Assembly (NCBI GenBank): GCA_900540885.1
Contig: UQHJ01000001.1
Location: 9,734 to 73,733 of the forward strand
Length of the DNA: 64,000 bases
DNA from: an uncultured Prevotella sp.
GTDB lineage: Bacteria; Bacteroidota; Bacteroidia; Bacteroidales; Bacteroidaceae
Direction: 5' to 3'
Shown here: positions 6,889 to 60,882 of the stretch, in pieces
How positions within the stretch are numbered: position 1 is the first letter of the stretch
Layout: the number at the start of each line of letters is the position of its first letter
The notes under the pieces: generated by a model
Told to the model about the DNA's origin: nothing
Databases searched by the model: none
What the model saw: the letters and a program-made list of their open reading frames with translations, nothing else
Position numbers and translations under genes: made by a program

Positions 6889-6978
6889 AGGAAACTTTTT
6901 GATCTCTCGTAACGAAATGTGTGGGTGCAATAATTTATAAGGAATAAATATAACTTGCAGTTTTATCCACACGATTCA

Positions 6979-7143
6979 TAAGATAGGCTGCGGCTCAGCA
7001 ATGAAAATGAAAGTTTTCTGACTTTCATTTTGCATTGCGCTCGCCTTGCACTATCTTTAGATAAGATATGCTGCGGCTCGGCAATGAAAATGAAAGTTTT
7101 TTGACTTTCATTTTGCATTGCGCTCGCCTTGCACTATCTTTGC
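6979..7143 (+). repeat. two tandem ~82-bp hairpin units ending in a Bacteroidetes -7 box (…TTTGCATTGCGCTCGCCTTGCACTATCTTTG); promoter-bearing repeat family
   Basis: The unit AAGATAGGCTGCGGCTCRGCAATG-[palindromic core]-TTGCATTGCGCTCGCCTTGCACTATCTTT occurs twice here. It recurs at 9310-9506, 24318-24463 and 49395-49525 (inverted), always abutting a gene start. Confidence 0.7.
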
Positions 7144-7175
7144 ACACTGAAAATGAGTTGTCCGAATAAGGATAA

Positions 7176-7211
7176 CCCCGAGTGCTTGGTAAACCTCGTA
7201 AAAAACAAGAT
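7176..7211 (+). promoter_or_regulatory. candidate preQ1-I riboswitch aptamer in the leader of yhhQ-queC-queF
   Basis: CGAG(7179-82)/CTCG(7195-98) P1 stem with a 12-nt loop UGCUUGGUAAAC, then tail UAAAAAACAAGA. The tail CAAG (7206-09) can pair with loop CUUG (7185-88) as an H-type pseudoknot. Resembles the Tte (CUGGGUCGCAGUAACCCCAGUUAACAAAACAAGG) and Bsu queC aptamers. Lies 3 nt before the ATG of a queuosine-precursor transporter. Confidence 0.55.
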
Positions 7212-7213
7212 AT

Positions 7214-7939
7214 ATGATAAATAATAATATATGTTCTTCAGCCACAGGGGCGAAGCGTCGACCTGTGGTGAGTGTCACCTACATGATGTTGGGTGTACTC
7301 TTTTGTGTATGTTTAATAGCGGCCAATTTGCTCGAAACGAAGCAAATCTGTATCGGTCCGCTTGAGTTAACCGCAGGACTCATTGTCTTTCCCGTCTCTT
7401 ATATCATCAACGACTGTATGGTCGAGGTGTGGGGGTATCGCCGTGCGCGCTTAATCATTTGGTTGGGCTTTTTTATGAACTTCCTGTTCGTTATCTTCGG
7501 TTTTGTAGCTGATATATTGCCAGGAGCTTCTTATTGGAAAGGGCAAGAAGGCTTCCACGCTATCTTTGGGTTAGCACCGCGCATTTGTGCTGCTTCGTTT
7601 TTAGCCTTCTTAGTAGGTTCATTCTTAAATGCCTATGTGATGAGTGTGATGAAACTCAAGTCAAATGGAGGACGTCACTTCTCGTATCGAGCCATTATGT
7701 CAACTTTGGTAGGTGAAACGAGTGATTCTCTCATTTTCTTTCCCTTAGCATTGGGTGGGGTAGTGCCTTGGTCAGTTATGCCCTTGTTGATGATTAACCA
7801 AGTGGTGCTAAAGACATTGTACGAAATCATAGTACTCCCCATTACCATTCGCGTTGTACGCCGTCTAAAAAGCTATGAAGGGGAGGACGTATATGACGAA
7901 AAAATCTCCTATAACGTTTTGAAAATCTTTGATATTTAA
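7214..7939 (+). CDS. yhhQ: queuosine precursor (preQ0/preQ1) transporter, YhhQ/VUT family
   Basis: 241-aa polytopic membrane protein. YhhQ-like N-terminus (…ANLLETKQI..GPLELTAGLIVFPVSYIINDCMVEVWGYRRARLIIWLGF). Immediately upstream of queC-queF. Confidence 0.75.
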   Translation: MINNNICSSATGAKRRPVVSVTYMMLGVLFCVCLIAANLLETKQICIGPLELTAGLIVFPVSYIINDCMVEVWGYRRARLIIWLGFFMNFLFVIFGFVADILPGASYWKGQEGFHAIFGLAPRICAASFLAFLVGSFLNAYVMSVMKLKSNGGRHFSYRAIMSTLVGETSDSLIFFPLALGGVVPWSVMPLLMINQVVLKTLYEIIVLPITIRVVRRLKSYEGEDVYDEKISYNVLKIFDI

Positions 7940-7954
7940 TTATTCATATACAAC

Positions 7955-8659
7955 ATGAACGCATCACATCAACATAACCTGCCTATTGATACAGGTCTTA
8001 TTCACGAAAAGGCCTTGGTAGTATTTAGTGGTGGACAGGACTCTACCACCTGCTTGTTTTGGGCTAAAAAGCACTTTAAGGAGGTTTACGCACTGAGTTT
8101 TGTGTATGGTCAAAAACATGTACACGAAGTCGAGATCGCCCAACAAATAGCACAGGAGGCTGGTGTACACTTCGACCAAATGGACGTAAGCTTTATTAGT
8201 TCGTTGGCACACAACTCACTCACCGACTCCAGTATCGTTATGGATCAAGTAAAGCCCGCCGATGGCCCTCCTAACACGTTTGTGCCTGGACGCAACCTTT
8301 TCTTCTTGAGCATCGCTGCCGTTTATGCGCGTGAGCGTGGCATTCGTCATATCGTAACGGGCGTTTCGCAAACAGACTTCTCAGGCTATCCCGACTGTCG
8401 CGACTCTTTTATACGTTCGCTTAACGTGACGCTCAACCTCGCTATGGAAGAGCAATTCGTAATTCACACTCCCTTGATGTGGATTGATAAGTGCGAGACT
8501 TGGGCTTTGGCCGATGAATTGGGAGTGCTCGACTTAGTGCGCTATCGCACCCTCACTTGTTATAATGGCGTAGTGGGCGATGGTTGTGGCCACTGTCCAG
8601 CTTGCAAGCTGCGTCGTGAAGGCTTAGAAGAATATTTAAAAATTAAAAACGAGAAATAA
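7955..8659 (+). CDS. queC: 7-cyano-7-deazaguanine synthase QueC
   Basis: PP-loop [12 protein letters not shown]-terminal Zn motif [10 protein letters not shown]. Confidence 0.9.
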
Positions 8660-8668
8660 AGGATATAT

Positions 8669-9124
8669 ATGCGTGACGACTTACATTTAAACGCTTTAGG
8701 TAGCAAGACAGAATACAAAAGCGACTATGCTCCAGAGGTGCTTGAAACCTTTGTCAACAAACACCCTGGCAACGATTATTGGGTTCGTTTCAACTGTCCT
8801 GAGTTTACCAGTCTCTGTCCCATTACAGGCCAGCCCGACTTCGCAGAAATTCGTATAGCCTACTTACCCGATACCTTAATGGTAGAGAGTAAAAGTCTCA
8901 AACTCTATCTTTTCAGTTTTCGCAATCACGGCGACTTCCATGAAGACTGTGTCAACATCATTATGAAAGACCTCATCAAGCTCATGAACCCAAAGTATAT
9001 AGAAGTGACAGGTCTCTTTACTCCACGTGGTGGCATCAGCATTTATCCCTATGCCAACTACGGCCGTCCTGGCACGAAGTATGAAAAGTTAGCCGAATAT
9101 CGTTTGCAACAGCACGATCTTTAA
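8669..9124 (+). CDS. queF: NADPH-dependent 7-cyano-7-deazaguanine reductase QueF (unimodular type)
   Basis: [18 protein letters not shown] thioimide Cys motif and [16 protein letters not shown] QueF motif. Confidence 0.9.
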
Positions 9125-9214
9125 GCGAAGCCTAACATGGATGCTCATTAACGAAAAAATAACGAAATAATTAATGGCTCCATAACGCATCGTGTGGGTA
9201 AACTCGGTTTAATA

Positions 9215-9290
9215 AACTGGAATTTGTCGGCCAAAACACCCCATTCCTTAATGGGAGGGGGTGTTCTGGCCGACAAATTCTATTTTATCA
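9215..9290. terminator. long hairpin (23-bp stem) after queF; diverged member of the AAACTGCAAT-terminus foldback family
   Basis: gaatttgtcggccaaaacacccc-[loop]-gggggtgttctggccgacaaattc. Preceded by cgtgtgggtaaact, which matches the outer TIR of the 23974-24241 element. Confidence 0.5.
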
Positions 9291-9309
9291 AAATCTGAAA
9301 TAATGCATT

Positions 9310-9506
9310 TTCCTTTTCATTGCGCTCGCCTTGCACTATCTTTAGATAAGATAGGTTGCGGCTCGGCAATGAAAATAAAAAACGCGTTTTTTCTTTTCAT
9401 TGCGCTCGCCTTGCACTATCTTTAGATAAGATAGGCGGCGGCTCGGCAATAAAAATAAAAAACGCGTTTTTTCTTTTCATTGCGCTCGCCTTGCACTATC
9501 TTTGCA
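9310..9506 (+). repeat. 2.5 tandem ~90-bp units of the promoter-bearing repeat family, ending 24 bp before yicC
   Basis: …cattgcgctcgccttgcactatcttt agataagataggYYgcggctcggcaatRaaaataaaaaacgcgttttttcttttcattgcgctcgccttgcactatcttt ×2. Core palindrome aaaaaacgcgtttttt. Confidence 0.7.
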
Positions 9507-9529
9507 AAAAGAATTAAAAAACGTAGAAA

Positions 9530-10408
9530 ATGATACAGTCAATGACGGGCTACGGCAAGGCCGATGTCCACTATAATGGTAAGAAGATACATGTAGAAGT
9601 TAAGTCGCTCAATAGCAAGAGCATGGACTTGAGTACGCGTATTGCACCGCTTTATCGCGAAAAAGAAATGGAACTTCGACAACTCCTATCAAAGTCGTTA
9701 GAGCGTGGTAAGGTAGACTTTACGCTTTGGGTAGAGAAAGATGAGACTTCTGCTGCTGGTACGATTAATGCTGAAGTAGTGGCTAATTATGTTGGCCAAA
9801 TTCGTCAGATTTGCAAAGCACAGTCATTGCCCGAACCTGAAAACGTTTGGGAAGTTGTATTGCGTATGCCTGAAGCTGTACAAGTAAATACGGCCGAGGA
9901 ACTGACTGATGAAGAGTGGCAGGTCGTACTCAGTGCTGTAAATGAAGCTATCGCAGGTCTGGTGGCTTTCCGTAAGCAAGAGGGAGAAGCCCTTTATAAG
10001 AAGTTTACTGAAAAGGTAGACAATATAGAACGTTTGTTGGGCGAGATTGAACCTTATGAAACGGGACGCGTGGATAAGATTCGTCAGCGCTTGCTCGAAC
10101 GCTTGCAAGAACTAAAAGGCGTAGACTATGATAAGAATCGTTTAGAGCAAGAATTGATCTATTACATCGAGAAACTTGACATTAGCGAAGAGAAGCAGCG
10201 CTTGACCAATCACTTACGCTACTTCCGTGAGACGATGCAAGAGAGCGAACGTGGATTGGGCAAGAAACTTGGCTTTATAGCCCAAGAAATGGGACGCGAG
10301 ATTAATACCACGGGTTCGAAGAGTAATCAGGCAGAGATGCAAAACATTGTGGTGAAGATGAAGGATGAGTTGGAGCAGATAAAGGAACAAGTGCTTAACG
10401 TAATGTAA
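9530..10408 (+). CDS. yicC: YicC/YloC-family stress-induced protein (endoribonuclease)
   Basis: N-terminal MIQSMTGYGKA and YicC-like length/composition. Confidence 0.85.
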   Translation: MIQSMTGYGKADVHYNGKKIHVEVKSLNSKSMDLSTRIAPLYREKEMELRQLLSKSLERGKVDFTLWVEKDETSAAGTINAEVVANYVGQIRQICKAQSLPEPENVWEVVLRMPEAVQVNTAEELTDEEWQVVLSAVNEAIAGLVAFRKQEGEALYKKFTEKVDNIERLLGEIEPYETGRVDKIRQRLLERLQELKGVDYDKNRLEQELIYYIEKLDISEEKQRLTNHLRYFRETMQESERGLGKKLGFIAQEMGREINTTGSKSNQAEMQNIVVKMKDELEQIKEQVLNVM

Positions 10409-60532: not shown

Positions 60533-60882
60533 TGAAGTGGGCGTAGCACTTGGCGAACTTACGGCTTCTGTTTCAGGCGCAGGAGTGGTTTCATTAGCCT
60601 TATTCTTATGTATGTTGAAGAAAGGAATCATTCTCGTATATATTATAGTTTGCAACGATTGTATTGTGCAAATGTACGATTAAAGTGTAAATTAGCAAAA
60701 GGGCAAAAGAGCAAAATGGGCTTTTCTTGTGTTACGATGTACGTGATTAACTGTGATTTACTATGCGGAATATACGTGTTGAATGTCCAGAAATCTTTTC
60801 TTGTGTAAAAAATACGCAAAAAGGTTTGGTAGTTTTAGATTAAGTCTTTACTTTTGTGGCGTAAAAATAACACAACAAGAAA

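What the first reader, a model, noticed from the sequence alone, without database searches (positions are those of the whole stretch)
7176..7211. Candidate preQ1-I riboswitch in front of a queuosine-precursor transporter-queC-queF operon
Between the promoter-bearing repeats and the yhhQ ATG lies CGAG-UGCUUGGUAAAC-CUCG-UAAAAAACAAGA. It has a 4-bp P1 stem, a 12-nt loop ending in AAAC before the 3' strand, an A-rich tail, and CAAG that can pair with loop CUUG to form the H-type pseudoknot. This is the preQ1-I layout (compare Tte CUGGG-UCGCAGUAAC-CCCAG-UUAACAAAACAAGG and Bsu AGAGG-UUCUAGCUACAC-CCUCU-AUAAAAAACUAA). It controls exactly the kind of genes (preQ0/preQ1 transporter, QueC, QueF) that preQ1 riboswitches regulate. 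preQ1-I is best known from Firmicutes and Proteobacteria, so a Bacteroidota example fused to a repeat-borne promoter would be noteworthy.
Basis: partly seen in the sequence, partly recalled or inferred. Interest (0 to 1): 0.6.

Follow-up and report, generated by a model that had tools for sequence, protein, structure and literature searches.

The report
Compact preQ1-type riboswitch before yhhQ
A 31-base RNA pseudoknot that ends four bases before the start codon of a queuosine-precursor uptake and conversion operon is a conserved, one-base-pair-shorter version of the known preQ1-I riboswitch; it most likely blocks translation when the precursor is plentiful, so it is a real regulator of a familiar kind.

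Summary
The sequence is exactly as described: CGAG-UGCUUGGUAAAC-CUCG-UAAAAAA-CAAG at 7179-7209, with the yhhQ AUG at 7214. It is not chance. The same element lies directly before yhhQ in 80/80 Prevotellaceae genomes and 78/80 more distant Bacteroidales metagenome loci. Inside Prevotellaceae both stems are invariant, so there is no covariation. Across the wider set, 4 of the 8 pairs change on both sides (P1: CGAG/CUCG, CGUG/CACG, AGUG/CACU, AGAG/CUCU, GGAG/CUCC; P2: CUUG/CAAG, CAG/CUG, CUAG/CUAG). The covariation score is 0.305 against 0.089 in shuffles (0/500). The U after P1, the AC before the P1 3' strand and the A-run never vary. This is the layout of preQ1-I type II. Rfam RF00522 does not detect the window copy (below about 9.5 bits; gathering 39). 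Orthologous leaders score 14-24.5 bits, and RF00522 is the only riboswitch family they match. The element is a compact form, with a 4-bp P1 and a 7-nt L3. There is no Shine-Dalgarno sequence and no terminator. The A-run and the P2 3' strand occupy -14 to -5, the A-rich initiation region of Bacteroidia, so translational repression is the likely mechanism. Ligand binding is untested. preQ1-I has already been reported from Bacteroidota, so novelty is modest.

The parts
7135..7142 (+). Bacteroidetes-type -7 promoter box TATCTTTG, at the end of the second 83-nt repeat
   Evidence: Read. A TAnnTT[TC]G box lies 20-119 nt upstream of the element in 76 of 80 loci. Transcription start is inferred, not measured.
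7157..7176 (+). Optional upstream hairpin (P0): GUUGUCC-GAAUAA-GGAUAAC
   Evidence: RNAfold gives -9.1 kcal/mol. A hairpin of unrelated sequence sits at the same place in most loci but is absent in the Segatella copri group, so it is not essential.
7179..7182 (+). P1 5' strand, CGAG
   Evidence: Pairs with 7195-7198. Pair 1 occurs as C-G, A-U or U-G, and pair 3 as A-U or U-A, across loci.
7183..7184 (+). L1: U7183 (invariant, counterpart of the ligand-contacting U6) and G7184
   Evidence: Column T7 is invariant in alignment A4. The equivalence to U6 of the Tte/Bsu structures is by position and is inferred.
7185..7188 (+). P2 5' strand, CUUG
   Evidence: Pairs with 7206-7209. Compensatory variants are CAG/CUG and CUAG/CUAG.
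7189..7194 (+). L2, GUAAAC: 0-4 hypervariable nucleotides followed by an invariant AC. C7194 is the presumed specificity base that pairs with preQ1.
   Evidence: The three nucleotides after CUUG are the only hypervariable core positions in Prevotellaceae. A17 and C18 are invariant in A3 and A4. AC before the P1 3' strand is the type II hallmark (PMC11625349).
7195..7198 (+). P1 3' strand, CUCG
7199..7205 (+). L3, UAAAAAA: 7-nt A-rich tail at -15 to -9 from the AUG
   Evidence: L3 is 7 nt in 149 of 156 parsed loci. The one 5-bp-P1 relative, L188, has a 9-nt L3.
7206..7209 (+). P2 3' strand, CAAG, at -8 to -5 from the AUG
   Evidence: Its first C lies at -7 to -9 in 135 of 156 loci.
7214..7939 (+). 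yhhQ (Vut_1 family, queuosine-precursor transporter); AUG at 7214-7216
   Evidence: Pfam E 1.3e-47. An ATG lies 0-12 nt after P2 and in frame with the YhhQ match in all loci.
7955..8659 (+). queC, presumably co-transcribed
   Evidence: Pfam QueC E 4.5e-82; 15-nt gap after yhhQ.
8669..9124 (+). queF, presumably co-transcribed
   Evidence: Pfam QueF E 1e-32; 9-nt gap after queC.

Best explanation
Bases 7179-7209 of the yhhQ-queC-queF mRNA leader form a compact H-type pseudoknot aptamer of the preQ1-I fold, with the type II 'AC' pocket. Without ligand, neither 4-bp helix is stable and the A-rich region before the AUG is single-stranded, so the operon is translated. When preQ1 (possibly also preQ0) binds, it pairs with C7194 and stacks between the G7182-C7195 pair of P1 and the G7188-C7206 pair of P2. 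The A-run 7199-7205 docks along P1, and CAAG 7206-7209 pairs with the loop. This locks positions -35 to -5 into a knot that abuts the start codon. It also removes the unpaired adenines that Bacteroidia ribosomes, which do not use Shine-Dalgarno pairing, rely on for initiation, so uptake and conversion of queuosine precursors are repressed. What is shown: the element exists, is conserved, has the pseudoknot topology with covariation, and is linked to queuosine genes. What is inferred: the ligand, the OFF direction, and action at the level of translation.
For: 1. Conservation. The element lies directly before yhhQ in 80/80 Prevotellaceae loci, counting the truncated copy at the edge of L076 and the four insertion variants, and in 78/80 loci retrieved by protein similarity from metagenomes.
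2. My own covariance model gives one hit of 44.8-54.4 bits in each of the 75 Prevotellaceae loci with an intact, uninterrupted copy. The next-best scores in 652 kb are 19 bits or less. The window has a single hit (52.2 bits; next best 10.8).
3. Covariation. On a MAFFT alignment, 4 of 8 pairs change on both sides and 97.6% of cells are paired. The score is 0.305 against 0.089 in shuffles (0/500), and 0.055 or less when the partners are slid (one search agrees).
4. On a YhhQ tree, the A-U/U-A swap in P1 needs at least 5 events, with no unpaired state seen in 128 sequences.
5. The pocket positions (U after P1, AC before the P1 3' strand, the closing G-C pairs, the A before P2) are invariant, while the adjacent L2 positions are hypervariable.
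6. RF00522 is the only riboswitch family matched by orthologous leaders: L188 24.5 bits, L137 24.0, L136 14.0.
7. L3 length tracks P1 length: 4 bp with 7 nt here, 5 bp with 9 nt in L188.
8. A published 30-mer type III aptamer with P1 shortened by one pair still binds preQ1 at 52 nM (PMC10622847).
9. Gene context. Same-strand queC and/or queF follow yhhQ in 136 of 169 loci.
10. Expression platform. The AUG lies 0-12 nt after P2 (3-5 nt in 135 of 156 loci), and the spacer leaves no room for a terminator.
11. In Bacteroidetes, adenines at -3, -6, -12 and -13 favour initiation and structure near the start inhibits it (PMC6847099). Their anti-SD sequence is sequestered (PMC7797042).
12. P1 alone is worth -2.2 kcal/mol and P2 alone -1.8 kcal/mol.
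Against: RF00522 does not report the window copy at any threshold tried, and no relative reaches the gathering score of 39 bits. Within Prevotellaceae, 7 of 8 pairs never vary, so all covariation comes from more distant loci. The outermost P1 pair is broken in Paraprevotella (U.U), in L011/L013 (A.G) and in the insertion variants (C.C, U.C). That leaves only 3 secure P1 pairs in those lineages. No binding, structure-probing or expression data exist. Pseudoknot energies could not be computed with the tools available.
Confidence: 0.82

Rival explanations
1. Same fold and mechanism, but the physiological ligand is preQ0 (7-cyano-7-deazaguanine) or both precursors, rather than preQ1 specifically.
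For: YhhQ imports preQ0 in preference to preQ1, and the Tte type II aptamer binds preQ0 at 35 nM (PMC10622847). The operon encodes QueC, which makes preQ0, and QueF, which consumes it. 64 loci pair the switch with yhhQ-queF only.
Against: QueF makes preQ1, the pathway's last free base, so end-product control is the simpler logic. Characterised class I aptamers prefer preQ1. Sequence alone cannot separate the two ligands.
Confidence: 0.12
2. The conserved block is not a ligand sensor. It would be a constitutive A-rich translation-initiation region, or a protein or sRNA binding site, that happens to contain short complementary words.
For: A-rich sequence at -9 to -14 is typical of Bacteroidetes start regions in general (PMC6847099). 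The stems are only 4 bp. RF00522 does not score the window copy.
Against: An initiation region would not need compensatory changes in two interleaved helices. It would not need an invariant U and AC next to hypervariable loop bases. It would not tolerate 30-40-nt hairpin insertions that keep both flanks intact. Sub-threshold RF00522 matches in orthologous leaders also point to the aptamer.
Confidence: 0.04
3. The aptamer is real but acts on transcription (Rho-dependent or intrinsic termination) or on mRNA decay, rather than on translation initiation.
For: The B. subtilis type II preQ1-I switch is transcriptional (PMC11625349). Loss of translation can secondarily expose Rho or RNase sites.
Against: There is no room for a terminator, since the AUG is 0-12 nt after P2 in 156 loci. 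The terminator scan finds none between 7143 and 7214.
Confidence: 0.02

Closest known systems
preQ1-I riboswitch, type II (Thermoanaerobacter tengcongensis and Bacillus subtilis queC aptamers; Rfam RF00522)
   Same: H-type pseudoknot in the order P1-L1-P2-L2-P1'-L3-P2'. U directly after the P1 5' strand. AC directly before the P1 3' strand. A-rich L3. A G-C pair on each side of the pocket. A tail ending in CAAG, as in Tte. Sits in the leader of queuosine genes. Orthologous leaders give the only sub-threshold Rfam match to this family.
   Different: P1 is 4 bp rather than 5 and L3 is 7 nt rather than 8-9, so the aptamer is 29-31 nt. The loop consensus UGCUUG is nearly fixed. Scores are far below the RF00522 gathering score (window below about 9.5 bits against 39). 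The tail is not part of a Shine-Dalgarno sequence. Instead it coincides with the A-rich -9 to -14 initiation region of an organism that does not use SD pairing.
preQ1-I riboswitch, type III (E. coli and other gamma-proteobacterial yhhQ leaders)
   Same: Controls yhhQ. Very small aptamer. AC at the specificity position. Translational control by burying the initiation signal inside P2 (PMC10622847; PMC11625349).
   Different: Type III has UU after the P1 5' strand, a pyrimidine-rich loop with a 3-nt L2, and an AAGG Shine-Dalgarno tail. Here L1 is UG, UA or UC, L2 is 4-8 nt, and the tail is CAAG(A) with no SD.
preQ1-I riboswitch, type I (Carnobacterium antarcticum; binds two ligands)
   Same: Same overall pseudoknot and gene class. 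Reported from Bacteroidota among other phyla.
   Different: Type I has UC before the P1 3' strand and UU after the 5' strand. Here AC is invariant, so a single-ligand pocket is expected.
preQ1-II (RF01054) and preQ1-III (RF02680) riboswitches
   Same: Same ligand and same pathway. The four insertion variants (L036, L038, L051, L058), with a hairpin embedded in L3, topologically resemble HLout pseudoknots.
   Different: No Rfam match at E<=10. Those classes are about twice as large and restricted to Bacillota.
tmRNA pseudoknot PK1 (RF00023)
   Same: An 11.5-bit partial match of 7178-7220 to model positions 50-90: CCGAG..CCUCGUAAA followed by A-rich sequence.
   Different: The gathering score is 47. 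ARAGORN finds no tmRNA. This is a chance resemblance between two small A-rich pseudoknots.

Membership tests
preQ1-I riboswitch (Rfam RF00522) | Score at or above the curated gathering threshold (39 bits) of the RF00522 covariance model | tested here: not met
   Window: no hit at the gathering threshold, nor at E<=10 on 201 nt or 56 nt, which implies below about 9.5 bits. Relatives: L188 24.5, L137 24.0, L136 14.0 bits. This is an operational criterion. The model encodes a 5-bp P1 and cannot encode P2.
preQ1-I riboswitch (Rfam RF00522) | H-type pseudoknot: hairpin P1 whose loop pairs with the 3' tail (P2) | tested here: met
   97.6% of cells are paired. 2 of 4 P1 pairs and 2 of 4 P2 pairs show compensatory changes. 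Covariation is 0.305 against 0.089 in shuffles (0/500), and 0.055 or less in slid controls. Parsimony on a YhhQ tree indicates multiple independent events.
preQ1-I riboswitch (Rfam RF00522) | Conserved cytosine immediately 5' of the P1 3' strand (Watson-Crick partner of preQ1) and conserved U immediately 3' of the P1 5' strand | tested here: met
   C7194 and U7183. Both columns are invariant in 37 distinct sequences and present in all 156 parsed loci. Their role in ligand contact is inferred from published structures.
preQ1-I riboswitch (Rfam RF00522) | A-rich L3 that runs along P1 and ends next to the P2 3' strand | tested here: met
   UAAAAAA at 7199-7205. Five A columns are invariant. L3 is 7 nt in 149 of 156 loci and longer where P1 is longer. 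The A-minor contacts themselves are not testable here.
preQ1-I riboswitch (Rfam RF00522) | Location in the 5' leader of queuosine synthesis or salvage genes | tested here: met
   Always directly before yhhQ. Same-strand queC and/or queF follow in 136 of 169 loci.
preQ1-I riboswitch (Rfam RF00522) | Selective binding of preQ1 with ligand-dependent folding | not testable with these tools
   Needs in-line probing, ITC or SPR.
preQ1-I type II | P1 3' strand preceded by AC | tested here: met
   AC is invariant. The definition is from PMC11625349.
preQ1-I type I | P1 3' strand preceded by UC, and UU after the P1 5' strand | tested here: not met
   AC is found, never UC. L1 is UG, UA or UC.
preQ1-I type III | UU after the P1 5' strand, pyrimidine-rich loop, AAGG Shine-Dalgarno tail | tested here: not met
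   L1 is UG. The tail is CAAGAU. No SD is present.
preQ1-II (RF01054) / preQ1-III (RF02680) | Match to the family covariance model | tested here: not met
   No match at E<=10 in the window or in 20 related loci.
tmRNA (RF00023) | Full tmRNA gene with tRNA-like domain and tag reading frame | tested here: not met
   Only an 11.5-bit partial match (gathering score 47). ARAGORN finds nothing.

The most novel reading that the evidence does not exclude
The Bacteroidales yhhQ element may be a distinct fourth subtype of preQ1-I. It would be the smallest natural form (29-31 nt; 4-bp P1, 7-nt L3) and invisible to the Rfam model. Its expression platform would not be a Shine-Dalgarno sequence but the A-rich -9 to -14 initiation region of Bacteroidia. 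That would give a natural, minimal system for studying how SD-blind ribosomes are switched off by a ligand-induced RNA knot. Lineage-specific elaborations exist: a hairpin or a ~170-nt domain inserted in L3, and tandem stem-loops.
Probability: 0.3. Interest if true: 0.5.

Novelty: new member of a known kind. Interest (0 to 1): 0.35.

Why it matters
It assigns a regulator to the queuosine-precursor salvage operon of abundant gut, oral and rumen Bacteroidales. It also shows that standard Rfam-based annotation misses this regulator: more than 150 copies were found here, none reaching the family threshold. Because these bacteria do not use Shine-Dalgarno pairing, the element is a compact natural test case. 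It could show how a riboswitch controls translation by hiding the A-rich initiation region itself. Cross-feeding of preQ0/preQ1 in the gut community could be read out through it. None of this overturns current understanding of preQ1 riboswitches.

Tried and rejected
1. Rfam at the gathering threshold on the whole window, and at E<=10 on 201 nt and 56 nt, gave no preQ1 family. The only hits were chance matches (HOTAIRM1_3, and a tmRNA PK1 fragment). ARAGORN confirmed there is no tmRNA.
2. Covariation within Prevotellaceae alone was uninformative, because 7 of 8 pairs are invariant.
3. A scan of viral contigs with a pattern that left P1 free gave 43 matches. All lacked P1 complementarity and scored 16.7 bits or less with my model, so they served as a negative control.
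4. The second descriptor hit in the window, at 60848, overlaps a -7 promoter box just before an ATG and scores nothing with the model. It was rejected.
5. MFE folding of the leader is unremarkable (z = -0.86). This is expected, because pseudoknots are not modelled.
6. McCown et al. 2014, the paper that defines types 1-3 and their taxa, is not held. I therefore could not check whether these exact sequences are in its type 2 set.
7. YhhQ homologues at 46-47% identity with Shine-Dalgarno sequences (L133-L135, not Bacteroidota) lack the element.
8. MAFFT put five leaders with a 2-nt longer loop out of register in alignment A3. The counts were repeated on a clean alignment (A4) and with a sequence-anchored parse.

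Full report
**Observation.** The window reads CCCC-CGAG-UGCUUGGUAAAC-CUCG-UAAAAAA-CAAG-AUAU-AUG from 7175 to 7216. The ORF starting at 7214 is a Vut_1/YhhQ transporter. It is followed after 15 and 9 nt by QueC and QueF. A Bacteroidetes -7 promoter box (TATCTTTG, 7135-7142) sits about 40 nt upstream, so the element lies in a short 5' leader. A structural descriptor of this layout occurs 0.035 times per dinucleotide-shuffled window. It occurs twice in the real window, and the second site (60848) is a false positive over a promoter box.

**Direct family test.** Rfam 15 gives no hit in the window at gathering thresholds. It gives no preQ1 family at E<=10 even when only 201 or 56 nt are searched. 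The only match there is an 11.5-bit fragment of the tmRNA PK1 region, and ARAGORN finds no tmRNA.

**Close relatives.** A protein-based scan of one genome per species returned 80 Prevotellaceae loci (Alloprevotella, Prevotellamassilia, Prevotella/Segatella, Paraprevotella) with YhhQ 65-97% identical to the window's.
- The element is present directly before the start codon in 79 of them. The 80th contig begins inside it.
- The flanking leader is unalignable, but 26 core positions are invariant. Only the three nucleotides after CUUG are hypervariable. That is the signature of strong selection on a structured site.
- Seven of the eight proposed pairs never vary in this set, so it says nothing about the pairings.
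- The outermost P1 pair is not always kept: U.U in Paraprevotella, A.G in L011/L013.

**Distant relatives.** YhhQ representatives at about 50% identity, and a metagenome scan seeded with an alignment of them, gave 80 further loci plus several single contigs. 78 of the 80 carry the element in the same place. The stems now vary.
- P1 occurs as CGAG/CUCG, CGUG/CACG, AGUG/CACU, AGAG/CUCU, GGAG/CUCC and AGGGG/CCCCU.
- P2 occurs as CUUG/CAAG, CAG/CUG, CUAG/CUAG and UCUAG/CAAGA or UCUAG/CAGGA. The last two have an internal A.A, as in the published Tte structure.
- On a MAFFT alignment of 37 distinct sequences, 97.6% of cells are paired and 4 of 8 pairs have changes on both sides. The covariation score is 0.305 against 0.089 +/- 0.018 in shuffles (0/500), and 0.055 or less when partners are slid by 1-3 columns. 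A less clean 47-sequence alignment gives the same answer.
- Mapped on a neighbour-joining tree of the YhhQ proteins, the A-U/U-A exchange in P1 needs at least five events and the outer pair at least eight. No unpaired state was seen at the three inner P1 pairs.
- The U after P1, the AC before the P1 3' strand, both pocket-flanking G-C pairs and the A-run are invariant throughout.

**Link to the known class.** In a search of 20 of these loci, RF00522 (PreQ1) is the only riboswitch family reported. L188 scores 24.5 bits and L137 24.0 bits, against a gathering score of 39. L136, searched alone, scores 14.0 bits. The window copy must be below about 9.5 bits.
- There is therefore a graded series from near-canonical to the window form. 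L188 has a 5-bp P1 and a 9-nt UUAACAAAA tail like the Tte aptamer. It scores best with Rfam and worst (17.4 bits) with my Bacteroidales model.
- According to the 2024 review (PMC11625349), type II preQ1-I is defined by AC before the P1 3' strand. Type I is defined by UC plus UU, and type III by UU plus a pyrimidine-rich loop and an AAGG tail. The present element fits type II only.
- It differs in having a 4-bp P1 and a 7-nt L3 (149 of 156 loci), which gives a 29-31-nt aptamer. A published 30-mer type III construct with P1 shortened by one pair still binds preQ1 at 52 nM (PMC10622847), so the shorter stem is plausible.

**Specificity.** A covariance model built from the clean alignment finds one site in the window (7177-7211, 52.2 bits; next best 10.8). 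It finds exactly one site of 44.8-54.4 bits in each of the 75 Prevotellaceae loci with an intact, uninterrupted copy, across 652 kb. Everything else scores 19 bits or less, including the 43 chance pattern matches from viral contigs.

**Mechanism.**
- The AUG follows P2 by 0-12 nt (3-5 nt in 135 of 156 loci). The first base of the P2 3' strand lies at -7 to -9 and the A-run at about -9 to -15. No terminator fits or is found.
- Bacteroidia ribosomes do not use Shine-Dalgarno pairing (PMC7797042). In Flavobacterium, adenines at -3, -6, -12 and -13 favour initiation, and structure near the start inhibits it (PMC6847099).
- P1 alone (-2.2 kcal/mol) and P2 alone (-1.8 kcal/mol) are marginal.
- I therefore infer the usual preQ1-I logic. 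The ligand nucleates the knot, the tail docks, and the initiation region is occluded. Here the occluded signal is the A-rich tract itself rather than an SD.
- The regulated genes fit this logic: yhhQ-queC-queF in 60 loci, yhhQ-queF in 64, yhhQ-queC in 12, and yhhQ alone in 32.
- Whether preQ1 or preQ0 is the physiological signal cannot be told from sequence.

**Comparison and novelty.** The element works like, and by every structural criterion I could test is, a preQ1-I riboswitch of the type II kind. It fails only the operational Rfam threshold. The review lists Bacteroidota among the phyla with preQ1-I, citing McCown et al. 2014, which I could not read. The taxon is therefore not new, and these leaders may already be in that data set. 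No held paper links a preQ1 riboswitch to Prevotella, Bacteroides or related genera. I file it as a new member of a known kind. There is a moderate chance that it deserves subtype status, mainly because of the SD-independent platform and its small size.

**Verdict.** It is biologically sensible but not surprising. Interest 0.35.

Noticed in passing
window 6978-7141 and 9308-9547: Tandem 80-83-nt repeats lie in front of yhhQ (2 copies, 96% identical) and in front of yicC (3 or more copies). Each contains a 28-38-nt palindrome. Only the last copy of each array ends in a proper -7 promoter box (TATCTTTG); the inner copies end TATCTTTA. The same repeat end precedes the yhhQ leader in L001, L002, L009 and L010. 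This looks like a mobile or expanding promoter-carrying repeat family.
   Followed up: partly
L036:270-340, L038:2914-2980, L051:2070-2140, L058:569-635: Four Prevotella-like loci carry a 30-40-nt hairpin of unrelated sequence (-5 to -15 kcal/mol). It is inserted between the P1 3' strand and a UAAACAAAACAAG tail, and the outer P1 pair is lost. The insertion turns the H-type knot into an HLout-like topology reminiscent of preQ1-II/III.
   Followed up: partly
L124:668-930 (same in L125): A YhhQ homologue at 53% identity, followed by a HAD hydrolase gene, has an unusual leader. There are two tandem stem-loops: CGUG-UGCUUUUAAC-CACG and CGUG-UGCUUGUAAC-CACG. They are followed by a ~170-nt strongly structured insert (z = -4.6) closed by ACCCGAA/UUCGGGU. 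Only then comes UAAAACUAAAGAAAAAUG. Which loop pairs with the tail is unresolved.
   Followed up: partly
L156-L168, L173, L175-L177, L187, L198, L209-L211, L215 (e.g. L158:1160-1200): A human-gut subgroup has the loop UAUUCUAG and the tail CAGGAG(A)AAUG. Its P2 3' strand therefore overlaps a perfect AGGAG Shine-Dalgarno-like word at about -9 to -5. This is unexpected in Bacteroidia, whose ribosomes are reported not to read SD sequences.
   Followed up: no
window 7178-7220: The Rfam tmRNA model matches its PK1 region at 11.5 bits (E 0.0015 in a 56-nt search). ARAGORN finds no tmRNA. This is a chance resemblance between two small A-rich pseudoknots.
   Followed up: yes
window 9208-9292: A 40-nt inverted repeat (85% complementary, 5-nt loop) lies about 85 nt after the queF stop. 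It may be the operon terminator or part of the adjacent repeat array.
   Followed up: no
L169:1100-1205: One Bacteroidales yhhQ has no riboswitch. Its -7 box (TTACCTTTG) lies only 5 nt before the ATG, which suggests a leaderless or near-leaderless, unregulated copy.
   Followed up: no
L013, L016, L024, L031, L034, L039, L042, L046, L061, L062, L080 (record titles): Several genome-collection contigs are titled as Clostridiales, Oscillibacter, Lachnospiraceae, Alistipes and the like. Yet they carry Prevotellaceae-type yhhQ, TAnnTTTG promoters and the element. These bins appear to be mislabelled or contaminated.
   Followed up: no
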